Positions 9,370-19,916 of a DNA stretch of 20,000 bases are shown here, in pieces (within the stretch, counting starts at the first letter, position 1; every line of letters starts with the position of its first letter). A model generated the notes under the pieces. It did not search any database, was not told the origin of the DNA, and saw nothing but the letters and a program-made list of their open reading frames with translations. The DNA is from an uncultured virus (IMG/VR IMGVR_UViG_3300035080_000019) (lineage: Duplodnaviria; Heunggongvirae; Uroviricota; Caudoviricetes): IMG/VR virus record IMGVR_UViG_3300035080_000019; one strand, written 5' to 3'. Both the position numbers and the translations under genes were made by a program.

Positions 9370-11994
9370 ATGGCAAACGAACTGAAAATGCAGGTGGTTT
9401 TCTCGATGATGGAGAAAATCACCGCCCCGCTGAAGAAAATCTCCAGCGGCGCCAAAGATACCGGCAAGGCACTCAAAGACACCAGTGACCGCCTGCGCGA
9501 GCTGAACAAGCAACAGAACGACCTCAACGGCCTGCGCGAGCTGCACCAGGGAATGCGCAAGACCAGTGCCGAGCTGGCCACCGCACAGCAGCGCGTTACC
9601 GATCTGGCGGCCAAGATGAAGGCCACCGAGAATCCTACTCGCGCCATGACGCGCGAATTTAACGCCGCAGTGCGCAGCGTCAAGTCGCTTCAGGAAGCCA
9701 GCGAGAAACAAGGTATCCAGTATCGTGCCTTGCGCGAGCGCCTGACCGACGCCGGCATTGGATCGCGCCAGCTCGCCAACGCACAGACCTGGCTCAAGAA
9801 CAGCATCGCCGCCACCAATGCCGAATTGGCCGACCAGCAGAAGAAGCTGACCGCCAGCCATCGTCAGCAGCAGGTCATGGCCAACGCTCGCCAGCGCGCC
9901 GACAAGCTGCGCAGCACGGCGGGTGGATTGGCTGCGGCCGGCGTGGGTGCTACCGCCAGCGGCGCGGCCGTGGGCGCGCCGCTCCTGGCCGGCTTGAAAG
10001 AGGCCAAGCACTACGAAACTGAGAATGGCCGGGTGCGTGCGCTCGGCCTGGGGCCGGCCGCGACCGCCGAAGCGATCAAGTTCGCGCGCGAGATGAAAAC
10101 CTACGGCACCAGCCAGCTCGACAACCTGCAATTGCTGCGCGATGGCATCACCGCCTTTGGTGATACGCATCACGCCGAGATGGTCGCCCCCATGATGGCC
10201 AAGATGAAATTCGGCAATCACGCCTTCTATGGCGAAGAGGAAGGCGCGGAGAACGAGCGCAAGTTCATGGACATGCTGAAGGTCATCGAAATGCGCAACG
10301 GCACCAAGGACATTGGTACGTTCTCCAAGCAGGCCAATATGGTGCAGCAGGTGCTGACCGCCACGGGCGGCCGGGTCGGCCCCGGTGAGTGGTTGAACCT
10401 GATCAAGACCGGTGGTATCGCGGCGAAGGGGCTCAAGGATGAATCCTTTTATTACCAGATGGAATCTCTGGTGCAGGAAATGGGCGGTAACCGCGTAGGC
10501 ACGTCCATGATGAGCGCTTACCAGAACCTGTACCAGGGCCGCACCACCAAGCGTTCCATTGCCATGCTGTCGGACCTGGGCCTGATTGGCGACCAATCCA
10601 AGGTGAAGCATGACAAGGCCGGCCAGGTCTCGTTCCTGAACCCCGGCGCCATCAAGGGCGCGGACCTCTTCCGCGAGAATCAATTCGAATGGATGGAAAA
10701 GGTACTGTTGCCACAATTGGCCAGCAAGGGCATCACCGACGAAAAAGGCATCCTCGATGCCATCGGCGGGATTTTCTCGAATCGCACGGCCGCGCAGCTC
10801 TTTTCGACGATGTACCAGCAGCGCGCGCAGATTCACAAAAACGAGAAACTGAACCGGGGCGCCGCCAATATCGACGAACTGGACAAGCTCGGGCGGGAAA
10901 CGGCCAACGGCAAGGAATTGGAAACCCTGGCCAAGGTGGCTGACCTGAAGCTGGAGATGGGAACCAAGATACTGCCGCTCTATGCGTCCGGCCTGCAGAT
11001 GGCCGCCAATGCCGTCCAGGCGCTATCGGGCTTCATGGAGCGCAACCCGACCACGGCCAAGGCCATGATTGTGGGTTTCAGCGCTATCGCCGCCATTCTG
11101 GTGGTGATGGGGCCGCTGATGCTGGCCCTGGCCTCCGTCATCGCTCCCTATGCCATGCTCCATGTCCTGTTCGCCAAGATCGGCTTGCAGGGCAATCTGC
11201 TCATGCCCGTCCTGCGCGGCATCGGGACGGTCTTCATGTGGCTGGGACGCGTGTTCCTGATGAACCCGATTGGCCTGGCGGTAACCGCCATCGCTGTAGC
11301 CGCCTATCTGCTGTACCGCAATTGGGAGCCTATTGCCGGCTTCTTCAGCAATCTATGGCAGCAGGTCCGCAGCGCCTTTGCAGGCGGCCTGGCCGGGGTG
11401 GCGGCACTGATCCTGAACTGGTCGCCGGCTGGGCTGTTCTACCAGGCTTTCGCGGGCGTGCTGGGCTGGTTCGGTATCGAACTGCCAGCAAAATTTACCG
11501 AGTTCGGCGCCATGATGCTGCGCGGCCTGGTCAACGGCATCACCAGCGGCATTGGTGCCGTGAAGAATGCCGTGCTGGGCGCGGGCGCCAGCGTCATTGG
11601 CTGGTTCAAGGAAAAACTGGACATCCATAGCCCTAGCCGTGTCTTTGCCGAGCTGGGCGACTACACCATGCAGGGCCTGGCCGTGGGGCTCAATCGTGGC
11701 CAGGATGGCCCGCTGTCCACCGTCAGCAGCCTTGCCGGCAAGCTGGCCAGTGCTGGCGCTGCTGTGGCCATTGGTGCCGGCAGCGTGCCGGCGATGGCCT
11801 TTGATAGTCGTCCGCCCATCAGCGGCGCCAGCACACAGCCGGTCGTCTACCAGGGCGACACGGTGCAGATCATCATCCAGCCGGCACCGGGCATGGATGA
11901 GCAAGCCATCGCCCGGGCGGTAGCCGCCGAGCTGGACCGACGCGACCGCATGAAAGCATCGCGCCAGCGTTCGAACCTCGCCGATTGGGATTAA
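9370..11994 (+). CDS. T: Tail tape measure protein (gpT position), 874 aa
   Basis: Follows E'; long Ala-rich helical protein with hydrophobic C-terminal segments, 'NPIGL...LYRNWEPI..FF' and 'IHSPSRVF'. Confidence 0.93.
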   Translation: MANELKMQVVFSMMEKITAPLKKISSGAKDTGKALKDTSDRLRELNKQQNDLNGLRELHQGMRKTSAELATAQQRVTDLAAKMKATENPTRAMTREFNAAVRSVKSLQEASEKQGIQYRALRERLTDAGIGSRQLANAQTWLKNSIAATNAELADQQKKLTASHRQQQVMANARQRADKLRSTAGGLAAAGVGATASGAAVGAPLLAGLKEAKHYETENGRVRALGLGPAATAEAIKFAREMKTYGTSQLDNLQLLRDGITAFGDTHHAEMVAPMMAKMKFGNHAFYGEEEGAENERKFMDMLKVIEMRNGTKDIGTFSKQANMVQQVLTATGGRVGPGEWLNLIKTGGIAAKGLKDESFYYQMESLVQEMGGNRVGTSMMSAYQNLYQGRTTKRSIAMLSDLGLIGDQSKVKHDKAGQVSFLNPGAIKGADLFRENQFEWMEKVLLPQLASKGITDEKGILDAIGGIFSNRTAAQLFSTMYQQRAQIHKNEKLNRGAANIDELDKLGRETANGKELETLAKVADLKLEMGTKILPLYASGLQMAANAVQALSGFMERNPTTAKAMIVGFSAIAAILVVMGPLMLALASVIAPYAMLHVLFAKIGLQGNLLMPVLRGIGTVFMWLGRVFLMNPIGLAVTAIAVAAYLLYRNWEPIAGFFSNLWQQVRSAFAGGLAGVAALILNWSPAGLFYQAFAGVLGWFGIELPAKFTEFGAMMLRGLVNGITSGIGAVKNAVLGAGASVIGWFKEKLDIHSPSRVFAELGDYTMQGLAVGLNRGQDGPLSTVSSLAGKLASAGAAVAIGAGSVPAMAFDSRPPISGASTQPVVYQGDTVQIIIQPAPGMDEQAIARAVAAELDRRDRMKASRQRSNLADWD

Positions 11995-12005
11995 GGAGTC
12001 ACATC

Positions 12006-12590
12006 ATGATGATGGTCTTGGGAATGTTCGTCTTCAGCCTGCCCACGCTCGCCTACCAGGAACTGCAACGGCAAACGCAATGGAAGTTCGCCAGCAATTC
12101 GCGCGTGGGCCGGCGCGATGCGCTGCAGTTCACCGGCAAGGGCGATGACGCCATCACCTTGTCGGGCTGGATTGCACCTGAGCTGACCGGTAGCGCGTTC
12201 TCGCTCGATGCCCTGCGCCTCATGGCCGACACCGGCAAGAGCTGGTTCCTGATCCAGGGNNNNNNNGGCGATGCCAAGCGCATCGAGTTCACCATCAAAC
12301 TCAAGCGCACCGACGACAGCGTGCTATCAGCGCTGGGCCTGGGCGATATCTCCGATCTGCGCAATATGGTTAATATCGACGGCATCACCAATAGCATCGC
12401 CGACAAGGCGCGCAATGTGGTGGGTAGTGCAATCGGTGGCGTAACCAGTGCTGCTGGGGCGATTGTCGGGAAGGTCAGTGGCGCGGCTGGGGCAGTGGGT
12501 AGCGTCAAGGGCGCTATCGGCAATGCGTCGGGCGCCGTGAGTGGTGCGGCCGGTTCTGCCGCTGGCAAAATCGGAGGACTCGGACAATGA
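12006..12590 (+). CDS. U: P2 gpU-like tail protein, interrupted by an N gap, with a Gly/Ala-rich C-terminal extension
   Basis: TAAGGAG SD; 'MMVLGMFVFSL.TLAYQELQR', 'ITLSG', 'RIEFTIKLKR'. Frame across the gap is unverified. Confidence 0.88.
   Translation: MMMVLGMFVFSLPTLAYQELQRQTQWKFASNSRVGRRDALQFTGKGDDAITLSGWIAPELTGSAFSLDALRLMADTGKSWFLIQXXXGDAKRIEFTIKLKRTDDSVLSALGLGDISDLRNMVNIDGITNSIADKARNVVGSAIGGVTSAAGAIVGKVSGAAGAVGSVKGAIGNASGAVSGAAGSAAGKIGGLGQ
12260..12266. other. Assembly gap (7 N)
   Basis: Run of n within gpU. Confidence 0.99.
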
Positions 12591-13816
12591 CCACCACCGC
12601 GCCGGCATTCCGCATCGTCATCGAAGAGAAGGACATTAGCCGCCCGGTCTCCGACCGGCTTATCAGCATCACCCTGCGCGAGTGCCGGGGTGATGAAGCG
12701 GACCAGTTGGATATCGAGCTGGACGATAGCGATGGCAAGCTGAAGATCCCGCCCAAAGGCGCCAAGCTGCAATTTGCGCTGGGCTGGCTGGGCTCCCCAT
12801 TGGTGGACAAGGGCGCGTTCGTGGTTTCCGAGGTGGAGCATAGCGGCGCACCGGATCGGCTCACCATTCGTGCCAGGTCTGCCAGCATGATCGACGCATT
12901 CCGTCAGCAGCGCGACCGCAGTTTCCATGAGACCATGCTTGGCGCAGTGGTGGACGCCATCGCTGCCGGCAATGGCCTGGCGTCCGGTATCTCGGCCAGC
13001 CTGCGCGGCATCGCCATCAAGCACCTGGACCAGACCCATGAAAGCGACTCTGCGCTGCTGCGCCGCCTGGGCAAAAAATATGATGCCGTGGCCACGGTGA
13101 AAAATGACACGCTGCTATTCATGCCGATCAACGAAGGCCGCACAGCAAGCGGTAAGCCGTTGCCGGTGGTCAAGGTGGTGCGTGCGCTGGGTGACCAGCA
13201 CCGCTATCACAGCTCGGAGTCGGATGCTTATAGCGGCGTGCGCGCTTTCTGGATGGATGAGAAATACGGACGGCGGCGCAGCGTGGTCGCCGGCCAGGCT
13301 GGCAACAGCAAGCGCCTGCGCACGACCTTTGCGAATGAGGCTGATGCGCGTACTGCCGCTGTGGCCGAGTGGCAGCGCATTGAGCGTGGCTTGGCCACCT
13401 TCGAGATGCAGCTTGCCCTGGGGGATGCCAACATCATGCCGCAATCACCCGTGGTGGTCACCGGATTCAAGGCGGATATCGACGCGACAGAATGGCTATC
13501 GAAAACGGTAACGCACTCGATCAGCGGTAGCGGTTTTACTACGCGCATCGAGTTCGAAACCAAGTCCGAAGCGGCCGACACCGAGCGTGAACTTGAGCAC
13601 GATCCAGAGGAAGGCATCACTGGAGTGACGGCCAATTGGCTCGACAAAGCCAAGTCAAAAAACAACAAAGGCGCCGAGCTGGTGGGCAAGGCCGACAATA
13701 CCAAGACACTGAAACGGACCTATGCCACCAAGCAAAGTGCTGCTCGCGCCGCTGCTCTGGAATGGGCCAAAATCAAGGAGGTCCGTGAGATTATTAGGGA
13801 GAACAGTACAGACTAG
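12587..13816 (+). CDS. D: P2 gpD-like baseplate hub ('late control D') protein
   Basis: 'EADQLDIELDD.DG', 'LVDKG.F.V.EVEHSGAPDRLTIRARSA', 'DQT.ESD'; ATGA overlap with U. Confidence 0.94.
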   Translation: MTTTAPAFRIVIEEKDISRPVSDRLISITLRECRGDEADQLDIELDDSDGKLKIPPKGAKLQFALGWLGSPLVDKGAFVVSEVEHSGAPDRLTIRARSASMIDAFRQQRDRSFHETMLGAVVDAIAAGNGLASGISASLRGIAIKHLDQTHESDSALLRRLGKKYDAVATVKNDTLLFMPINEGRTASGKPLPVVKVVRALGDQHRYHSSESDAYSGVRAFWMDEKYGRRRSVVAGQAGNSKRLRTTFANEADARTAAVAEWQRIERGLATFEMQLALGDANIMPQSPVVVTGFKADIDATEWLSKTVTHSISGSGFTTRIEFETKSEAADTERELEHDPEEGITGVTANWLDKAKSKNNKGAELVGKADNTKTLKRTYATKQSAARAAALEWAKIKEVREIIRENSTD

Positions 13817-13986: not shown

Positions 13987-14907
13987 ATGAGATCGACATT
14001 ACCGGAACTTGGGGCCGAGCTAGCGTTATATTCAATTGACGCAGTGAGCGACATGATTATTTGGCTCGACGAAGACGGATATTACGTATTCGTCAATAAG
14101 GCCGCCACAGAGTTTTTAGGCTATACATCTCAAGAGCTAGGACAATTGAGAGTCTGTGATATTGATCCAGACTTTGACGAGGTACGCTGGAAGGATCATT
14201 GGAAGGAGCTTGAGATAAAGCGGTCCGTTTGTTTGGAAACGACCAACAGGAACAAATCTGGACAGATTATTCCAATTGAAGTGAACGCAAGCCTAGTTCA
14301 ATTTGAAGGAAAAAAATTCAATTGCTCTATCGTTCGAAATATCTCTGAAAGGAAGCGTACTGAAGCCTCACTGCTCGCACTGAACAAGCAAATCTATTTG
14401 CTGAGCATTACCGACGACCTAACCCAATTGGGGAATCGACGTCATTTTGACGAGGTGTTTAAAAGAGAGCTTCAACGTGCTATTGAGCAGAAAATTCCTT
14501 TTTCTTTGGTTCTTATCGACGTTGATTATTTCAAGGCATTCAATGATCTATATGGGCATATACAAGGCGATCATTGCTTAAAACGCGTAGCAGCCACGAT
14601 AAGTGCATCAATTCAATCTACGAATGAATTAGCTGCGAGATACGGAGGAGAAGAATTTGTCTGCATTCTGCCGGGCATGTCCCCAAAAAATGTTTTGGGA
14701 TTTGGTGAAAGACTAAGACAAGCAATCCAAGATCTGGCAATTCCACACAGTGGATCGTCTTTTGGCACTGTCACAGCGAGTATCGGCGTGTCTACCTTAG
14801 AGATTACCGATAGCATCTCGCCTGAGAGCCTGTTCTTCGAGGCTGATCAACATCTCTATCGAGCCAAAGCGAATGGGCGCAATCGGGTCGAAGGAAAATC
14901 TAGTTAG
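13987..14907 (+). CDS. Moron: PAS/PAC-GGDEF diguanylate cyclase
   Basis: PAS (D.IIWLDEDG..VFVNKA..EFLGY) and PAC (IPIEVN...VRNISERK); 'TDDLTQLGNRR', 'LIDVDYFKAFNDLYGH..GD', 'RYGGEEF', 'ADQHLYRAKANGRNRV'; AT-rich relative to the phage core. Confidence 0.96.
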   Translation: MRSTLPELGAELALYSIDAVSDMIIWLDEDGYYVFVNKAATEFLGYTSQELGQLRVCDIDPDFDEVRWKDHWKELEIKRSVCLETTNRNKSGQIIPIEVNASLVQFEGKKFNCSIVRNISERKRTEASLLALNKQIYLLSITDDLTQLGNRRHFDEVFKRELQRAIEQKIPFSLVLIDVDYFKAFNDLYGHIQGDHCLKRVAATISASIQSTNELAARYGGEEFVCILPGMSPKNVLGFGERLRQAIQDLAIPHSGSSFGTVTASIGVSTLEITDSISPESLFFEADQHLYRAKANGRNRVEGKSS

Positions 14908-14965: not shown

Positions 14966-15628
14966 CTATCTTGGTTTCGACCAAAGCGATTTACCGCTCG
15001 TGGCATCGAAGATGCATTCTTGGCGCAAGTCGCCTTCTGATCTGATAGTGAATCCTGTCGTGTACGCCTTGCCTTCGAAATAGCAGGTATTGTCTGCAAC
15101 CTGCTCCGGCTCAACCGGCGCGGGCATTTTGTAGAGTAGCCATCCGCAAGTCATAACCAGAACCAAAACTAGCAACCAATTGATGAACACTTGTTTCTGC
15201 GCTCGGGCGATCGCTATGTCCTTTTCGCTACAGACCGCACATTCATGGGCCTTGTGCTGTTCGCAGGTCGGCGGCAGCAGACGCGCTTGATCTAACGCTC
15301 GATCAGTTTTCGCGGTACCGGCATCAATCCAACCTTCGAGTGTCTCCTTGACCTTCGTGTAATGCTCGATAGGTAATTCTCGGAAATACTGGATGCCATA
15401 ATCTGCGATGAAAATTTTATAAATTTCGATTTCTTTATCGCCGCAAATTGCTGCCCACTCTTTCACCAGAACATTAATCCTCTTGCGCTGATAATCAGTG
15501 ATCCGCTGGACTTCCTTTTTACCCTCATTCAAATGCAGATTGACGACGTTGCTGAGCCTTGCAACTTGATGCACATCGCCTATCACCGCGTTTTCGACAT
15601 CCCCATGAAAATCCACTTTGTCCGACAT
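14966..15628 (-). CDS. Single-pass membrane protein: N-terminal motif shared with the repressor, ORF6C-like domain, TM helix, DUF1496-like C-terminus
   Basis: 'IADYGIQYFRELPIEHYTKVKETLEGW' resembles ORF6C; TM 'VFINWLLVLVLVMTCGWLLY'; 'CYFEGKAYTTG..I.....RQEC' resembles DUF1496. Domain calls are from memory of the family patterns. Confidence 0.65.
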   Translation of the reverse strand: MSDKVDFHGDVENAVIGDVHQVARLSNVVNLHLNEGKKEVQRITDYQRKRINVLVKEWAAICGDKEIEIYKIFIADYGIQYFRELPIEHYTKVKETLEGWIDAGTAKTDRALDQARLLPPTCEQHKAHECAVCSEKDIAIARAQKQVFINWLLVLVLVMTCGWLLYKMPAPVEPEQVADNTCYFEGKAYTTGFTIRSEGDLRQECIFDATSGKSLWSKPR

Positions 15629-15717
15629 GTAAAACCTGTTCTTCTAATTCATCAATACAACTGCTTTTGTGACTAAGGTTTGACCCAGCCTCTACACAGC
15701 ATTCCGCCATGCCGCGC

Positions 15718-16143
15718 CTATTTTTTTTTGCGCCCCACATAGACTGGAGCAGTGATGTCGCCAATCACCTGATGTCCCACTCTGCCATGGAAATTAATTT
15801 CTTGATTTCGTTGGACAGCCTTAGGGGCCTCTGCCTCATTCATTCCATCGGCTAAGCCCAACAGTCTTGCCTTCCCGCGAACATCCAGTTTCCGATACGA
15901 AATCACCAACTCATTTTCTTCGGGTGAAAGAGTTGTAGACGAAGTGATACCAGTCAACACGAATTGAACATCTACCCCCTGGCCTGCCAACTGGGCTAGA
16001 AATTCTGCATTGGGCACAAGCTTGCCCTGCTCCCAATCGACTTGTGAGCGTTTCGATGCCCCGCCTAACGCGGCAAATTCAGCCTGATTAAGGCCTAATC
16101 GCTCGCGCTCAGCTTTCAAGCGGCTCCCGATTAATTGACGCAA
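15718..16143 (-). CDS. XRE-family HTH prophage immunity repressor
   Basis: 'IGSRLKAERERLGLNQAEFAALGGASKRSQVDWEQGKLVPNAEFL...GVDVQFVLTG'. Likely TTG start at 16143 after AGGTG. Divergent from the early genes; no S24 peptidase domain. Confidence 0.9.
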   Translation of the reverse strand: MRQLIGSRLKAERERLGLNQAEFAALGGASKRSQVDWEQGKLVPNAEFLAQLAGQGVDVQFVLTGITSSTTLSPEENELVISYRKLDVRGKARLLGLADGMNEAEAPKAVQRNQEINFHGRVGHQVIGDITAPVYVGRKKK

Positions 16144-16159
16144 TTTTTCACCTTTTGTA

Positions 16160-16188
16160 TTTACAAGTGCGAGATTTCGCACTATATT
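16160..16188 (+). promoter_or_regulatory. Early (lytic) sigma70 promoter with an operator in the spacer
   Basis: TTTACA (16160-16165)-17 nt-TATATT (16183-16188); palindrome AGTGCGA-gatt-TCGCACT (16166-16183) fills the spacer. Confidence 0.8.
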
Positions 16189-16225
16189 TGCGTCATTGCT
16201 AAGTGACGTATACAAATTTTACTCT

Positions 16226-16450
16226 ATGTCTACATCCGCCATTTCGTTGCCACCAAGAAATGAAACTGACATTCCAGCTATCAGGGATGTCACATCGGTG
16301 GTTATGACCACCCGCCTGGATTCTCGCGAGGCGGAAAAAGTCTCGGCCTATGCAGTTCAAGACCATCGAACTCGCTCCTCCTTTCTTCGCCTCATGGTTC
16401 TGAAAGGTATTCAGGCCTACGAAAAAGAACACCAATCCGCAACTGCCTGA
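16226..16450 (+). CDS. First early gene (Cro/Cox position), probable ribbon-helix-helix DNA-binding protein
   Basis: Divergent from the repressor; 'VMTTRLD..EAEKV..YA....RTRSSFLRLMVLKGI' strand-helix-helix pattern. Confidence 0.6.
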   Translation: MSTSAISLPPRNETDIPAIRDVTSVVMTTRLDSREAEKVSAYAVQDHRTRSSFLRLMVLKGIQAYEKEHQSATA

Positions 16451-16706: not shown

Positions 16707-16896
16707 TATCGAACTGACGCTGATAAGCCCTGCACTCGTTGAGGCATTGGAAATACTGATGGCGTGCGAGGGATTCGAGACAATCGAAGACGCCGCTGAG
16801 TTCGTTTTTTCCGCAGCGGTTCGTGAAGGTGCAAAGCGTGTTACCGGCAAGGCAAGAGTGCTTTATGCCGTTGAGGGGAAGAAGCCATGCGCGTAA
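16699..16896 (+). CDS. Early hypothetical protein
   Basis: Overlap-coupled to both neighbours; 65 aa. Confidence 0.6.
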   Translation: MPDIELTLISPALVEALEILMACEGFETIEDAAEFVFSAAVREGAKRVTGKARVLYAVEGKKPCA

Positions 16897-17147
16897 TCAG
16901 CATTCCATGCCCACACTGCCAACATCGTGTGAGAGCGGCTAAGAGCCGTACCATGTCGTTGATGATGAAGGAAATCACCTACCAGTGCCAGAACGTCGAG
17001 TGCGGCCACACCTTCGTGGCCACGCTTGAAGTTTCGCGCACCGTGTCGATGTCGGCCATGCCGAACCCGGAAGTGCGCATCCCCATCTCTTCGCGCGCAT
17101 TTCTGGCTGCGAAGAACCAAATGACGTTAGACCTCGCGACCGCTTAA
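16887..17147 (+). CDS. ogr: Ogr/Delta-like zinc-finger late transcription activator
   Basis: CPHC...SR......YQCQNVECGHTFV (C-x2-C...C-x4-C) signature. Confidence 0.95.
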   Translation: MRVISIPCPHCQHRVRAAKSRTMSLMMKEITYQCQNVECGHTFVATLEVSRTVSMSAMPNPEVRIPISSRAFLAAKNQMTLDLATA

Positions 17148-17521: not shown

Positions 17522-17875
17522 ATGCGCGGCGCCCGAATCAAGGACCATGCGTCATTCCGTCCCGTCACGGATCTGCTGCGCGAGCGTGCGGCACTGGCAC
17601 CGACGCCACCAGGCGATGAGGCCGCTAAGGCTGAATTGGAAAAAGCCATGACGCTGCTGCGCACGCGCAAGCGGCCCAATCATCAGATTGGCGTCGCCTA
17701 TTCCTGGGCGGCCACGGCCAAGCCGGTACGCCGACACATCCTTGCCCTGGCGGGACTCTCGCCGGATCGCTGGGAATCCCCCATTCACTCCTTCACCGAA
17801 GCCGAACGCCTGGCCATGCGCCATGCCGTGCTGCGTGCAATTACGACCTATGAAAGAGCGCTCAATGCAGTATAG
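17522..17875 (+). CDS. Hypothetical protein preceding gpA
   Basis: ATG 17522 after AAAGG; 117 aa; overlaps the A start. Confidence 0.65.
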   Translation: MRGARIKDHASFRPVTDLLRERAALAPTPPGDEAAKAELEKAMTLLRTRKRPNHQIGVAYSWAATAKPVRRHILALAGLSPDRWESPIHSFTEAERLAMRHAVLRAITTYERALNAV

Positions 17876-19916
17876 GAAAGTCGATGCGAAGACTCGGCGC
17901 CAGCATAGGGCGTTCACGGAGTCGCCGCAGTTCGCCAGGGAGCTGGCGCGCATCCCCTTGAAGTGGCGTGGCCGTGTGGTCAGTGAGGCTCTAGAGCTGA
18001 TGTCGGTCTGGCACTGGCGCCGCATCTTCGAGCCGGTGGCCGTCGAGTTCGTCCGTGACTTCGCAGAAAAGTACGTGCCGGCCGGCATCGATCTTTCTCA
18101 GGACGATGCGGATATCTGCGCCACGGCAGAAAAGGCCGCTGACAACGTCAAGAAAATGCTGTGGAAGGCAATTTCCGATACCCACGCCCGCGACATCATC
18201 GAGCAGGAATGCAGCGACTACGGTATTGACGTGCCGGAGGTAGATGATGACGACTTGCGCGCCATCATTGCCCGCGTGGTTGATCCTCGCTGGTGGCGCC
18301 GGCAGTTGCGCAAGGTGGTCGGTCGGGCCTTCGAGGGCGGCAATATCCGCCTGGGCTATGTCCACTACCATGGCGAGCCCTACGCCAGCAATGATGCCGT
18401 GCTGTCGCGCCTGGCCCAGAACAAGCGCAATGCTGCCGCGCTGGAAGCGACTATTGTGCGCAATGAAGCTGGCCAGGAATTCAGCATTGCCGAGCTGGCC
18501 GAGAAGACCACGGCCAATAAGACCATTCGCCGCGGCGAACTCATGCTGCGCATCAATGGCTTCGAGATGATCGCGAGGGAATGCAACGACCAGGGGCTGT
18601 TTCTCACCTGGTCCTGCCCGTCACGCTTCCATGCCACTCTGCACACGGGCAAGCCGAACCCCAAATATGACGGCTCGGACCCACGCACGGCCAATAAATA
18701 CCTTGGCAAGATGACTGCGCTGGCACGCTCGGCGCTGGCCCGGCGCGGCATCGGCCTGTACGGTTTCCGCATCGCTGAACCCCACCACGATGGATGCCCG
18801 CACTGGCACATGCTGGTATTCGTGCGCGCTCTGCCGGGCTACACCACGCCGCACGTCAAGGACGTGGCCAGCCGTGCTATCCGCATCATGAAGCGTTATG
18901 CCTGGCGCGTGGATCGCGGCGAGCCGGGTGCATTCAAGCGTCGCCTCGACGTGAAGCGCATCGACTGGTCAAAGGGCAGCGCTGCTGGCTATATCGCTAA
19001 GTACGTGGCCAAGAACATCGATGGCGTCGCCGACCATAAGACCAAGGAAGGCTATGTGGTCACTACCGACACAGCCGGCGACTACGAACTGACGCCATCG
19101 GCCCGCGTGGAAGCCTGGGCCGCTCGCTGGGGAATTCGTCAGTTCCAGCAGTGGGGTGGCGCGCCGGTGAGCGTGTGGCGCGAGCTACGCCGCGTTCCAG
19201 CGGAGATGGTGCAAGAGGCGCCACCGGCGATGGCCGCCGCCTGGGATGCTGTCCAGAAGATCGAAGGCGAGAAGCGTGCGTGCTGGGCCAGTTATCTGCG
19301 CGCGCAAGGTGGTGCCATCGTGAAGCGCGATGACCTGATGGTCACCCTGGCCAAGGAAACCAAGACTGTCACCGGTCGCTATGAAGAGTGTGAGCGAGTG
19401 ATGCCCTATGGCGTGCAGTGTCGCCAAATGGCCGGGGTGGTCTTTAAATCAGTTCGGCATACATGGACGCCAGTTCAAGGGCACGACGCCCGCGCATCGG
19501 CGGGGTCGGGTTTCCCTTGGACTCGTGTAAATAACTGTACGCAGCCCGCCACGCCTGACTTTGCGGCCGATGCGTCCTTCGAGCCGAAAGCGGCGCCCGC
19601 ACCGGTCATGTTCCAGCCCGACCAGGCCGCGCAGATCGATCATGCCTGGCTCGCCCTGGGCGCATGTCCCTGGCCTCGACCAGTGGTCAACGACATGCCG
19701 GCATGGCCAGGGCCAGCCGTGACCGCCGATGAGCAGCGCCGCGCACTGGCGGCCTGGGATGCCATCAAGGCGTGCCCCTGGCCACGCGTGGTGCCTGTGC
19801 CGGACAAGTCCCCGCGCCGCGGCACGCCGCGCCAGGTCGCCGACTGGCGCGCCGGCCGGCTCGATGTGACCGAACTTCCGATTAATCCCAACCCAACGAA
19901 AGGGAACGCCCCATGA
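17865..19916 (+). CDS. A: P2 gpA-like rolling-circle replication initiator (HUH endonuclease)
   Basis: 'WWRRQLR', 'RRGELM.RI.GFE', 'T.SCPSRFH', HUH 'EPHHDGCPHWH', catalytic 'GYIAKYVAKNIDG', 'WGIRQFQQ.GG.PVSVWRELR'; start reassigned to ATG 17865. Confidence 0.96.
   Translation: MQYRKVDAKTRRQHRAFTESPQFARELARIPLKWRGRVVSEALELMSVWHWRRIFEPVAVEFVRDFAEKYVPAGIDLSQDDADICATAEKAADNVKKMLWKAISDTHARDIIEQECSDYGIDVPEVDDDDLRAIIARVVDPRWWRRQLRKVVGRAFEGGNIRLGYVHYHGEPYASNDAVLSRLAQNKRNAAALEATIVRNEAGQEFSIAELAEKTTANKTIRRGELMLRINGFEMIARECNDQGLFLTWSCPSRFHATLHTGKPNPKYDGSDPRTANKYLGKMTALARSALARRGIGLYGFRIAEPHHDGCPHWHMLVFVRALPGYTTPHVKDVASRAIRIMKRYAWRVDRGEPGAFKRRLDVKRIDWSKGSAAGYIAKYVAKNIDGVADHKTKEGYVVTTDTAGDYELTPSARVEAWAARWGIRQFQQWGGAPVSVWRELRRVPAEMVQEAPPAMAAAWDAVQKIEGEKRACWASYLRAQGGAIVKRDDLMVTLAKETKTVTGRYEECERVMPYGVQCRQMAGVVFKSVRHTWTPVQGHDARASAGSGFPWTRVNNCTQPATPDFAADASFEPKAAPAPVMFQPDQAAQIDHAWLALGACPWPRPVVNDMPAWPGPAVTADEQRRALAAWDAIKACPWPRVVPVPDKSPRRGTPRQVADWRAGRLDVTELPINPNPTKGNAP
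19514..19540 (+). other. Putative replication origin (ori) inside gene A
   Basis: CCCTTGGACTCGTGTAAATAACTGTAC (encoding PWTRVNNC) resembles the P2 ori (CCTCG^GAGTCCTGTCAA...), which also lies within A. Confidence 0.7.

What the first reader, a model, noticed from the sequence alone, without database searches (positions are those of the whole stretch)
14966..16143. Repressor C-terminus and adjacent membrane protein N-terminus share a homotypic (RHIM/BASS-like) motif: candidate amyloid-type switch controlling lysogeny
Seen: the XRE repressor ends in ...INFHGRVGHQVIGDI-TAPVYV (15754-15798). The next co-oriented gene begins MSDK-VDFHGDVENAVIGDV...SNVVNLHLN (15572-15616). The two align without gaps over 15 residues with 8 identities (FHG, V, VIGD) plus I/V, N/D and I/V substitutions, while the rest of the proteins are unrelated. 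Synonymous codons differ, suggesting conservation at protein level. The motif has alternating hydrophobic residues with G/N/Q/H and sits at the terminus of each protein, beyond a linker. Established: a short shared motif at the C-terminus of an effector and the N-terminus of an adjacent-gene receptor is the hallmark of fungal HET-s/NLR, mammalian RHIM and bacterial BASS amyloid signalling. The repressor lacks a RecA-cleavable S24 domain, so it needs another induction route. Inference: the membrane protein senses an envelope cue and templates or sequesters the repressor through this motif, forming an SOS-independent induction or immunity-tuning switch. I know of no description of this in P2-like phages.
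Basis: partly seen in the sequence, partly recalled or inferred. Interest (0 to 1): 0.9.

Follow-up and report, generated by a model that had tools for sequence, protein, structure and literature searches.

The report
Repressor tail mirrors membrane partner's head
In this P2-like prophage and many relatives, the flexible tail of the lysogeny repressor and the first residues of the membrane protein encoded next to it carry the same short, co-evolving peptide motif, which points to an undescribed physical link between a phage repressor and the cell membrane.

Summary
The XRE repressor (15718-16215, minus strand) ends in INFHGRVGHQVIGDI and the next gene (14966-15628), a single-pass membrane protein, begins with VDFHGDVENAVIGDV: 8 of 15 identical, and the best local alignment between the two proteins. 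Comparative data make it robust. Every relative of the membrane protein with enough upstream DNA has a repressor with a motif tail upstream. Repressor homologues with a helical tail have no such partner. Motif variants change in step, in register, in many lineages, without DNA-level copying. Unrelated membrane proteins downstream of other repressors mirror those tails too.

Both segments are predicted disordered. Their G/Q/N/V/I-rich, L-poor composition matches published bacterial amyloid signalling motifs.

Most likely the two motifs pair directly and tether the repressor to its membrane partner, tuning repressor activity with allele-specific insulation between prophages. Binding, amyloid character, an envelope signal and an induction role are all inferred. 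I found no printed description. Earlier notes of this scan saw the same pairing in other genomes. Verdict: a new variant of paired homotypic signalling motifs, of high interest.

The parts
15718..16215 (-). Rep: XRE-family HTH repressor. The longest ORF is 165 aa. The probable real start is TTG at 16143, preceded by AAGGTG at 16149-16154, giving 141 aa.
   Evidence: ORF and sequence. Pfam HTH_31, E 1.4e-5, residues 29-77; phrog_8, phrog_4 and phrog_3, transcriptional regulator or repressor. AF2 gives an HTH plus helices to residue 128 and no S24 domain. Rep is divergent from an Arc-like gene and Ogr, the position of the P2-type switch.
15985..16131 (-). Rep helix-turn-helix DNA-binding domain (residues 29-77)
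   Evidence: Pfam HTH_31, HTH_3, HTH_19; pLDDT above 90.
15736..15801 (-). Rep C-terminal motif, residues E139-V160 (EINFHGRVGHQVIGDITAPVYV). The core I140-I154 lies at 15754-15798.
   Evidence: Conserved in 69 aligned homologues (G147 and G152 nearly invariant). AF2 pLDDT below 50 for residues 131-165.
15721..15732 (-). Polybasic end of Rep (RKKK), encoded in part by an A9 run at 15721-15729
   Evidence: K/R-rich ends are seen in most homologous tails.
15629..15717 (-). 89-nt spacer between Rep and Mem. No promoter-like or terminator-like site on the minus strand.
   Evidence: no unusual RNA structure (z -1.0). Contigs from RNA libraries of a relative run across it (weak).
14966..15628 (-). 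Mem: 220-aa single-pass membrane protein with its N-terminus in the cytoplasm; a member of phrog_6521
   Evidence: phrog_6521, E 2e-24. AF2 model; hydrophobic segment at residues 146-164; family of 472 cluster representatives.
15527..15619 (-). Mem N-terminal motif, residues 4-34 (KVDFHGDVENAVIGDV...SNVVNLHLN). The core V5-V19 lies at 15572-15616.
   Evidence: AF2 pLDDT below 50 for residues 1-37. The motif is at the extreme N-terminus across the family (91 of 150 representatives hit the motif HMM, and all 91 hits start within the first 30 residues).
15278..15508 (-). Mem cytoplasmic three-helix domain (residues 41-117)
   Evidence: pLDDT about 90; best fold matches are Red-beta C-terminal domain, Sak and NinB at Z 6.9-7.5, below the reliable range for helical bundles; 4 of 69 members hit GemA weakly.
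15137..15193 (-). Mem transmembrane helix (residues 146-164)
   Evidence: Kyte-Doolittle 19-residue mean of 1.98; helix 131-167.
14978..15103 (-). Mem small C-terminal (periplasmic) beta domain with a conserved Cys pair, DUF1496-like
   Evidence: DUF1496, E 0.01; 29 of 69 family members match at E <= 0.05, best 1e-4. C182 and C205 invariant in 5 sequences; five beta strands.

Best explanation
The repressor tail and the membrane protein's head are cognate homotypic interaction motifs. Each is an intrinsically disordered, Gly/Gln/Asn/Val/Ile-rich segment of about 20-30 residues. The two pair with each other, most likely strand on strand in the same register.

This pairing tethers the prophage's immunity repressor to the membrane-anchored protein encoded just downstream. 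The partner thereby changes how much repressor is free to bind its operators. It would act as a membrane-anchored antirepressor or immunity tuner in a phage whose repressor cannot be cleaved through RecA. The many motif alleles would keep co-resident heteroimmune prophages from cross-talking.

Shown: the motif pair, its terminal position, its conservation, its pair-specific in-register covariation, its restriction to repressors that have such a partner, the membrane anchoring of the partners, and the predicted disorder.

Inferred: physical binding, the direction of the effect on repression, and any signal sensed by the periplasmic domain.
For: 1. Universality. Of 66 sources examined (L001-L065 plus the window), 61 paired automatically as a Rep with a motif tail upstream of Mem. 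Four more (L005, L043, L044, L058) have the Rep hit but failed my coordinate filter. One (L049) is cut 129 nt upstream of Mem. In L023-L031 a small gene is inserted between the two, leaving gaps of 520-810 nt, and the pairing is kept.

2. Co-occurrence among 80 Rep-homologue loci.
- 40 have a Mem-HMM hit downstream, and all 40 have Gly-rich beta-type tails.
- Of the 40 without a Mem hit, 31 have helical tails.
- The other 9 have beta-type tails. Five of these (L082, L097, L121, L123, L124) have a non-homologous downstream ORF whose N-terminus mirrors the tail. Examples: L124 VRIKSKGKKSQAGFNISN against IRIKSKGENSQAAFNILN and EIKARGGNSQAAYNIYN; L082 FHGPVGGGVAGRDIVN against FQAAVEGGVAGRDITN and FHDTVSGGVAGRDIIN.

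3. Covariation.
- In 27 clusters the cognate tail/head score averages 41.6 against 33.5 for non-cognate pairs; 0 of 20000 permutations reached the observed sum.
- With 11 stringently separated lineages the means are 43.3 against 30.3; over 50 resamplings the median permutation p is 0.0005 and the maximum 0.0015.

4. Register. Identities at the same motif position number 196, against 152.8 +/- 6.1 with shuffled partners (0 of 2000 shuffles reached 196). The excess is +43.2 at offset 0, -5.7 to +9.5 at other offsets, and at most +15.5 on any antidiagonal.

5. No gene conversion. Nucleotide identity of the aligned motif DNA is 0.52-0.70, and 52 of 103 identical residues share a codon.

6. Partners are membrane proteins. 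60 of 69 Mem-family partners have a strongly hydrophobic 19-residue segment, and 5 of the 6 non-homologous partner ORFs tested have 1-2 such segments.

7. Both motif regions are disordered in AF2 monomer models while the flanking domains are confident.

8. Precedent. SinI, encoded next to the XRE repressor SinR, shares SinR's oligomerisation segment and inactivates it as a 1:1 complex (PMC3917956, passages read).

9. Weak hint of expression. RNA-library contigs of a relative, in three runs of one study, cover both genes and the spacer.
Against: - No binding has been measured.
- In the Burkholderia-type lineages the cognate score is not better than the non-cognate mean: L002 23 against 27.2, L036 25 against 32.5, L037 26 against 28.2. 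L057, L063 and L064 are likewise at or below their row means.
- Ralstonia loci L043 and L047 carry the same Mem head with two different Rep tails.
- Four of 49 beta-tail repressors (L088, L103, L132, L145) have no detectable partner within the 2.3-2.5 kb held downstream. The tail may therefore have a function of its own.
- Tail and head lie about 100-200 nt apart on the DNA, so one recombination event swaps both. Linkage inflates the apparent number of independent covariation events, although it does not explain why tail and head match each other.
- Lineages are related, so the permutation p-values are not true probabilities. At a 50% clustering threshold only 3 clusters remain and the test is uninformative (p 0.17).
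- Co-expression of an antirepressor with its repressor needs an extra, unknown control step.
Confidence: 0.55

Rival explanations
1. Amyloid-type (BASS/HET-s-like) templating. On a cue, the membrane protein's N-terminal motif nucleates in-register cross-beta assembly of repressor tails. This removes repressor from DNA cooperatively, giving a prion-like lysogeny switch. It is a special case of direct pairing.
For: - The topology matches amyloid signalling pairs: motif at the C-terminus of one protein and at the N-terminus of the adjacent gene's product (for Bab/Agp, section read).
- Motif length is about 20-30 residues.
- Composition: G 2.2x, Q 2.2x, N 2.4x, V 1.8x and I 1.4x enriched; L 0.09x, P 0.61x and K 0.71x depleted. 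This is the bias Dyrka et al. report for BASS (section 9 read).
- The same residue at the same position in both partners is what parallel in-register stacking predicts.
- Both segments are disordered in monomer models.
Against: - No fibril or prion data exist.
- No Pfam motif family (RHIM, HET-s and others) matches at E <= 10.
- Neither partner has the domains of known systems: there is no NLR and no Bell, HeLo or Bab effector.
- The protein carrying the membrane anchor has the 'sensor-side' N-terminal motif, the reverse of known systems.
- An irreversible aggregate is an odd way to control a repressor that must be re-established.
- In-register identity is equally expected from mimicry of a common site.
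Confidence: 0.18
2. Mimicry without direct tail-head contact. Both motifs bind the same third site, such as a pocket on the repressor body, a phage-encoded factor or a host adaptor or protease. The membrane protein's head then competes with the repressor tail.
For: - Identity at equivalent positions is what two ligands of one site would show.
- Four beta-tail repressors lack a detectable partner, so the tail may act on its own.
- Helical-tail repressor homologues have a downstream small ORF that mirrors their helical hairpin. This suggests a general theme of a neighbour copying the repressor's C-terminal interaction element.
Against: - Closely related phages of similar hosts carry at least six different matched motif alleles (WIN, L017, L019, L020, L069 and L081 types). 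An invariant host site could not drive this.
- A variable third site would have to co-vary as well, and none was identified.
Confidence: 0.15
3. The pair is a lysogen-expressed exclusion or abortive-infection module. The membrane protein is the effector, and the repressor tail holds it in check or triggers it through the motif. It would not be a regulator of the prophage's own induction.
For: - Position in the repressor operon beside moron genes (a GGDEF gene and small secreted proteins) is typical of lysogenic-conversion and exclusion genes.
- PHROG files the family under 'moron, auxiliary metabolic gene and host takeover'.
- The one experimentally studied bacterial motif pair in E. coli, Bab/Agp, is an Abi system located in a prophage (abstract, section 4).
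Against: - No PADLOC scan or toxicity test was run here.
- The partners differ in architecture and share only the motif and the membrane anchor. That fits a tether better than a conserved effector.
- Mem's cytoplasmic helical domain and small periplasmic domain show no pore-forming or enzymatic signature.
Confidence: 0.1
4. The two proteins are the halves of a split single-chain repressor (HTH-linker-C-terminal domain) that still dock through the peptide.
For: - Residues 26-101 of Rep match positions 5-80 of the 267-position phrog_17822 profile, so longer relatives of the HTH part exist.
- The pair is strictly adjacent.
Against: - Mem does not match phrog_17822 at E <= 0.01.
- No ORF6C or HTH family is found among the 69 Mem members at E <= 0.05.
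- 0 of 150 Mem-family representatives match the Rep HMM, and none has an N-terminal extension of 100 residues or more.
- Word-index searches for longer forms of Mem and of Rep found none (weak evidence by the tool's own statement).
- A split would not create the same motif on both sides of the break.
Confidence: 0.04
5. There is no functional link. The similarity is chance or a decaying relic of a local duplication, carried along by linkage.
For: - The motif is short and low in complexity.
- The window pair alone is only modestly significant against full-length shuffles (8 of 5000).
- Tail and head are linked on the DNA.
Against: - The motif is conserved at both termini across three phage genera and 472 family representatives.
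- Cognate matching exceeds non-cognate matching.
- Non-homologous partners with very different motif sequences match too.
- There is no DNA-level similarity.
Confidence: 0.03

Closest known systems
Amyloid signalling motif pairs: bacterial BASS1-10 in Bell/NLR gene pairs (Dyrka et al. 2020 preprint, 10.1101/2020.01.06.895854; abstract and section 9 read) and BASS11 in the E. coli Bab/Agp abortive-infection pair (10.1101/2024.11.07.622273; abstract and section 4 read)
   Same: - A motif of about 20-30 residues sits at the C-terminus of one protein and the N-terminus of the protein encoded by the adjacent gene.
- The composition is G/N/Q/V/I-rich and L/P-poor.
- Motif alleles are pair-specific.
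- The segments are predicted unstructured in the monomer.
- Bab/Agp also lies in a prophage.
   Different: - Here the C-terminal motif is on a DNA-binding repressor, not a membrane-targeting death effector.
- The N-terminal motif is on a small single-pass membrane protein, not an NLR or TPR sensor.
- No match to any Pfam amyloid motif family.
- Fibril formation is untested.
- The presumed output is transcriptional control of lysogeny rather than cell death.
SinI/SinR (with SlrA/SlrR) of Bacillus subtilis (PMC3917956, passages read)
   Same: - An XRE-family repressor and a protein encoded next to it share the repressor's C-terminal interaction segment.
- The neighbour forms a heteromeric complex that stops the repressor from working.
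- The two genes are partly co-transcribed.
   Different: - The shared segment in SinI/SinR is an alpha-helical hook. Here it is a Gly-rich, beta-prone disordered tail.
- SinI is a small soluble protein. Here the partner is anchored in the membrane and has a periplasmic domain.
- There is no sequence relationship.
Membrane-anchored anti-sigma factors such as RseA/sigma-E (recalled from general knowledge; no call)
   Same: - Same topology: cytoplasmic N-terminal binding segment, one transmembrane helix and a small periplasmic domain that could receive an envelope signal.
- A transcription regulator is held at the membrane.
   Different: - The regulator here is a phage HTH repressor, not a sigma factor.
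- Binding would be through a short homotypic peptide rather than a folded anti-sigma domain.
- No evidence of regulated proteolysis.
PHROG family phrog_6521 ('membrane protein', moron category), annotated as gp24 of Burkholderia phage phiE52237 and gp22 of phiE202
   Same: Mem is a member (E 2e-24). It keeps the same position after the HTH gene in those phages.
   Different: The family has no described function. A 2011 analysis of P2-like regulatory regions could not identify repressors in these phages (PMC3448106, passages read). The motif pairing is not mentioned in the papers I read.

Membership tests
Amyloid signalling motif pairs (BASS/FASS) | A short motif (about 25 aa) shared by the C-terminus of one protein and the N-terminus of the adjacent gene's product | tested here: met
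   The core is 15 aa and the extended motif about 22-31 aa. The genes are adjacent, or separated by one inserted gene in some relatives.
Amyloid signalling motif pairs (BASS/FASS) | Composition enriched in Q, N, G, V, I and depleted in K, P, L (Dyrka et al. 2020, section 9) | tested here: met
   on 1176 motif residues against 7969 other residues: G 2.20x, Q 2.22x, N 2.40x, V 1.79x, I 1.42x; L 0.09x, P 0.61x, K 0.71x (K only mildly depleted).
Amyloid signalling motif pairs (BASS/FASS) | The partner with the N-terminal motif is an NLR-like sensor (NOD plus repeats) or another large sensor | tested here: not met
   Mem is a 220-aa single-pass membrane protein. Pfam finds only a weak DUF1496 match. 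AF2 model.
Amyloid signalling motif pairs (BASS/FASS) | The partner with the C-terminal motif is a cell-death or enzymatic effector (Bell, HeLo, Bab, TIR and the like) | tested here: not met
   Rep is an XRE HTH protein.
Amyloid signalling motif pairs (BASS/FASS) | The motif forms cross-beta fibrils and templates its partner (prion-like) | not testable with these tools
   No experiment was possible. AF2 monomer models show only disorder.
Amyloid signalling motif pairs (BASS/FASS) | Sequence match to a described motif family (RHIM, HET-s PFD and others in Pfam; BASS1-11 profiles) | tested here: inconclusive
   No Pfam family at E <= 10 for either motif peptide. BASS1-11 profiles were not available to me.
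SinI/SinR-type antirepressor pairs | An XRE-family HTH repressor and an adjacent gene product that share the repressor's C-terminal interaction segment | tested here: met
   This describes how the pair is built, not descent.
SinI/SinR-type antirepressor pairs | The shared segment is the alpha-helical hook | tested here: not met
   The shared segment is Gly-rich and predicted disordered.
SinI/SinR-type antirepressor pairs | A heteromeric complex blocks repressor oligomerisation and DNA binding | not testable with these tools
   No experiment was possible.
LexA/CI-type autocleavable repressors (S24 peptidase) | A C-terminal S24 peptidase domain with a cleavage site | tested here: not met
   No Peptidase_S24 hit at E <= 0.1. 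In the AF2 model only helices to residue 128 and a disordered tail follow the HTH.
phrog_6521 membrane protein family | Full-length match to the family profile | tested here: met
   E 2e-24, residues 6-217 on profile positions 4-235 of 243.
   0 of 150 Mem-family representatives match the Rep HMM. No longer homologues were found (weak evidence). Mem does not hit phrog_17822.

The most novel reading that the evidence does not exclude
The paired motif is a true amyloid or prion-like signalling motif. On an envelope cue, the membrane protein's N-terminal segment nucleates in-register cross-beta assembly of the repressor tails. This cooperatively strips repressor from its operators. The result would be an SOS-independent, allele-specific, self-propagating lysogeny switch. 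It would be the first amyloid signalling motif on a transcription factor and the first used by a virus for its own life-cycle decision.
Probability: 0.17. Interest if true: 0.95.

Novelty: new variant of a known kind. Interest (0 to 1): 0.8.

Why it matters
How P2-like and many other temperate phages without a RecA-cleavable repressor leave lysogeny is poorly understood. For the Burkholderia, Ralstonia and phiCTX groups even the repressor was unidentified in a 2011 survey (PMC3448106).

A conserved, co-evolving peptide link between the immunity repressor and a membrane-anchored protein with a periplasmic domain gives a concrete, testable route from the cell envelope to the lysis-lysogeny switch.

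It would extend paired homotypic motifs, so far tied to NLR and cell-death signalling, to transcriptional control. It also offers a set of natural orthogonal peptide pairs. The finding recurs with unrelated partner proteins, and the family has 472 cluster representatives. It therefore looks like a general design, not a curiosity of one prophage.

Tried and rejected
- Complex prediction of Rep 90-165 with Mem 1-115, using my own alignments: score 0.00, below the mark, controls not run. The tool returned no verdict, so this is evidence neither for nor against binding.
- Foldseek of the Mem model against the PDB: no match at E <= 0.001. VIA wide search: best Z 7.5 (Red-beta C-terminal domain, Sak, NinB) for residues 38-109. 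That is below the reliable range for helical bundles, so the fold is unassigned.
- ESM Atlas look-up of Mem residues 38-120: no usable hit.
- Pfam scan of the two motif peptides at E <= 10: nothing.
- Searches for fused or longer forms of Mem and of Rep: none found, which the tool calls weak evidence.
- Genome-contig scan with the Mem alignment: only 2 loci, both Herbaspirillum.
I used the search for related loci instead, as the message advised.
- My first regex-based pairing missed many repressors. I replaced it with HMM-based pairing.
- Clustering at 50% identity left only 3 lineages, which is uninformative.
- Programmed frameshift at the A9 run to fuse Rep and Mem, by reading the sequence: one extra A extends Rep by 12 codons, and one fewer A enters the 15525-15764 frame, which is not Mem's frame. 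No fusion results, so I rejected this.
- N-terminal motif as a membrane-targeting or secretion signal: rejected, because the same motif sits at the C-terminus of a cytoplasmic DNA-binding protein.
- RNA runs: only contigs, from one study, at 90-97% likeness. Parts of the stretch without cover mean nothing, and DNA carry-over is not excluded.
- Literature: no paper holds 'amyloid signaling' together with prophage and repressor. The two BASS papers searched hold no HTH, repressor or lysogeny terms. Searches on antirepressor plus membrane protein and on phiE202/phi52237 repressors gave no description of this pair. Figures and bioRxiv supplements could not be seen, so a BASS-family listing that includes HTH proteins cannot be excluded.
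Full report
**What is there**

The window is part of a P2-like prophage.
- Tape-measure gene (9370-11994).
- Tail gene (11985-12590).
- gpD (12587-13816).
- PAS-GGDEF moron (13987-14907).
- Two genes on the minus strand, followed on the plus strand by an Arc-like gene (16196-16450), small ORFs, Ogr (16887-17147) and the replication nickase (17688-19916).

The two minus-strand genes are the subject.
- Rep (15718-16215) is an XRE-family HTH protein. Pfam HTH_31 matches residues 29-77, and the PHROG matches are repressor or regulator families. Its probable true start is the TTG at 16143, five bases behind AAGGTG, giving 141 aa. I number it by the 165-aa ORF.
- Mem (14966-15628) belongs to phrog_6521, 'membrane protein' (E 2e-24).

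**Check of the observation**

Rep ends ...EINFHGRVGHQVIGDITAPVYVGRKKK. Mem begins MSDKVDFHGDVENAVIGDVHQVARLSNVVNLHLNEGKKE.

The best local alignment between the two whole proteins is this stretch, with score 49. Shuffles reach it 8 times in 5000 for the full proteins and 0 times in 5000 for the tail against the head. Only 3 of the 8 identical residues share a codon, and nucleotide identity is 0.56.

**Structure predictions**

- With a 69-row alignment, AF2 gives Rep an HTH plus helices to residue 128. The tail, residues 131-165, has pLDDT below 50. There is no S24 domain.
- Mem has a disordered head (residues 1-37, pLDDT below 50) and a confident three-helix domain (41-117). A long helix contains the hydrophobic segment 146-164. 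A five-strand C-terminal domain (181-217) has a conserved Cys pair and weakly matches DUF1496.
- No solved fold matches convincingly.

**Relatives**

tblastn finds Mem in 63 phage records (37 Burkholderia, 26 Ralstonia) and Rep in 234.

In phiE52237, phiE202, Ralstonia YO124_1 and RsoM1USA the same gene order holds, and both termini carry the motif. Scans of IMG/VR gave 58 loci with Mem and 80 with Rep homologues. Two Herbaspirillum genome loci also matched.

With HMMs of both proteins, I examined 66 sources.
- 61 paired automatically as a Rep with a motif tail upstream of Mem.
- Four more have the Rep hit but failed my coordinate filter.
- One is cut 129 nt upstream of Mem.

In some relatives a small gene with a signal-peptide-like start lies between the two (gaps of 520-810 nt), and the pairing persists.

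The Mem family has 472 cluster representatives at E <= 0.001 in 1.84 billion proteins. Of the best 150, 91 hit my narrow motif HMM, and every hit starts within the first 30 residues. The others show variant heads by eye. None matches the Rep HMM.

**Co-occurrence among the 80 Rep-homologue loci**

- 40 have Mem downstream, and all 40 have Gly-rich beta-type tails.
- 31 have helical tails (for example ...AVMRLLRAFTLKK) and no Mem.
- 9 have beta-type tails but no Mem-HMM hit.

Among those 9, five have a different downstream protein whose N-terminus mirrors the tail.
- L082: FHGPVGGGVAGRDIVN against FQAAVEGGVAGRDITN and FHDTVSGGVAGRDIIN.
- L124: VRIKSKGKKSQAGFNISN against IRIKSKGENSQAAFNILN and EIKARGGNSQAAYNIYN.
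- L121: GGVQVGVNSGTIT against GGSIQVGCNSGSIT.
- L097 and L123 similarly.

Four (L088, L103, L132, L145) have no detectable partner in the DNA held.

Partners are nearly always membrane proteins. 60 of 69 Mem-family members pass a strict hydropathy threshold, and 5 of the 6 non-homologous partner ORFs tested do so.

**Covariation**

Cognate tail/head alignment scores exceed non-cognate ones.
- In 27 clusters: 41.6 against 33.5, with 0 of 20000 permutations reaching the observed sum.
- With 11 lineages linked by neither protein at 60% identity: 43.3 against 30.3, median permutation p 0.0005 over 50 resamplings.

The register test used 28 motif pairs. I started from 69 pairs. Ten did not fit the anchor pattern, duplicates were collapsed to 45, three mis-anchored rows were dropped, and near-identical rows were collapsed.
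- Identities at the same motif position number 196, against 152.8 +/- 6.1 for shuffled partners; 0 of 2000 shuffles reached 196.
- The excess is +43.2 at offset 0 and between -5.7 and +9.5 at other offsets. The largest antidiagonal value is +15.5.

The two segments therefore tend to carry the same residue at the same position. That fits parallel in-register pairing, or mimicry of one binding mode.

DNA identity of the aligned motif segments is 0.52-0.70, and 52 of 103 identical residues share a codon. Matching is thus kept at the protein level, not by recent copying.

**Results that cut the other way**

- In the Burkholderia-type lineages the cognate score is not above the non-cognate mean.
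- Two Ralstonia groups share one Mem head but differ in Rep tail (L043 against L047).
- Tail and head are neighbours on the DNA and will be exchanged together.
- The lineages are related, so the permutation figures overstate independence.

**Composition**

The motif residues are enriched in G (2.2x), Q (2.2x), N (2.4x), V (1.8x) and I (1.4x). They are depleted in L (0.09x), P (0.61x) and K (0.71x). This is the bias that Dyrka et al. report for bacterial amyloid signalling sequences (section 9 read).

No Pfam family matches the peptides.

**Interpretation**

The simplest reading is that tail and head bind each other. The immunity repressor is thereby tethered to a membrane-anchored partner, and this changes the pool of active repressor. 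The diversity of matched alleles among closely related phages argues for a direct, pair-specific contact rather than a shared host factor. It also fits insulation between co-resident prophages.

Two known systems frame this.
- SinI/SinR: a neighbour that shares the XRE repressor's C-terminal interaction segment inactivates it.
- Amyloid signalling pairs such as Bab/Agp: the motif is at the C-terminus of one protein and the N-terminus of the next, and the pair lies in a prophage.

The present pair is built like the second and may work like the first. It is a member of neither. The shared segment is not a helical hook, there is no NLR or death effector, and fibril formation is untested.

Whether the partner inhibits, stabilises or is controlled by the repressor is not known. 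Whether the periplasmic domain senses anything is also not known.

The spacer between the two genes has no promoter-like or terminator-like site on the coding strand. RNA-library contigs of a relative cross it (one study, contigs only, a weak hint).

**Novelty**

My literature searches found no description of this pairing. A 2011 survey could not even identify the repressors of the related Burkholderia, Ralstonia and phiCTX phages.

Earlier AI notes of this scan describe the same kind of pairing in other genomes. They are leads, not independent evidence. One of them read the pair as a split repressor, and I found no fused forms for this family.

Noticed in passing
window 13987-14907 (+): A PAS-GGDEF diguanylate cyclase gene (GGDEF E 3e-45) sits as a moron between Mem and the tail gene gpD, on the opposite strand to Rep and Mem.
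   Followed up: no
L111, L115, L118, L119, L143 (about +773 to +864 nt after Rep); L101, L108, L117 (about +542 to +545 nt): Rep homologues with a helical C-terminus (no beta motif, no Mem) have a small downstream ORF that mirrors the repressor's helical hairpin. Example: AEETEFVEILRSIDEPDRAVLQRTARAF against ERLFIELLRGLDEQRRQDLMRVLEVL, with scores 44-51 against background 31-34. This is a SinI/SinR-like arrangement.
   Followed up: partly
L023-L031, between Rep and Mem: A small gene of about 134-180 aa with a signal-peptide-like N-terminus is inserted between Rep and Mem in several relatives. The matched motifs are kept.
   Followed up: partly
L005 (Ralstonia phage RsoM1USA), locus 1229-2938: The Rep homologue of RsoM1USA is cut at its 5' end by an IS element (InsA/InsAB' transposase genes) and is annotated only as a misc_feature. 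Mem is intact.
   Followed up: no
window 15721-15729 (-): A run of nine A encodes the KKK end of Rep, directly before its stop codon. Reading with one A more or one A fewer does not join Rep to the Mem frame (read).
   Followed up: yes
L008 Mem residue 9; L027 and L028 Mem residue 9: The nearly invariant Gly of the Mem head is Arg in three loci (FHRDV in L008; AQRDIGQ in L027 and L028). L008 is otherwise almost identical to the window.
   Followed up: no
L043/L044/L058 against L047/L054/L055: Ralstonia phage loci with the same Mem head (NIVVKGDAGQVVAGDATHDG) carry two different Rep tails (IKVQGKVGQYIDGNHTGPTNIDM or IRVGGNVGQYVEGNQTGTVNIDM). This is a natural mismatch that could test specificity.
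   Followed up: no
L082 (+0 and +699 nt after Rep); L124 (+16 and +353 nt): Some loci encode two successive partner proteins, each with the mirrored head. In L082 the first has no strongly hydrophobic segment and the second has two.
   Followed up: partly
window 15086-16239: Contigs from three rhizosphere RNA-seq runs of one study, 90-97% alike, cover Mem, the spacer and Rep. X2 has one contig over 15254-15738 and another over 15743-16239. DNA carry-over is not excluded.
   Followed up: partly
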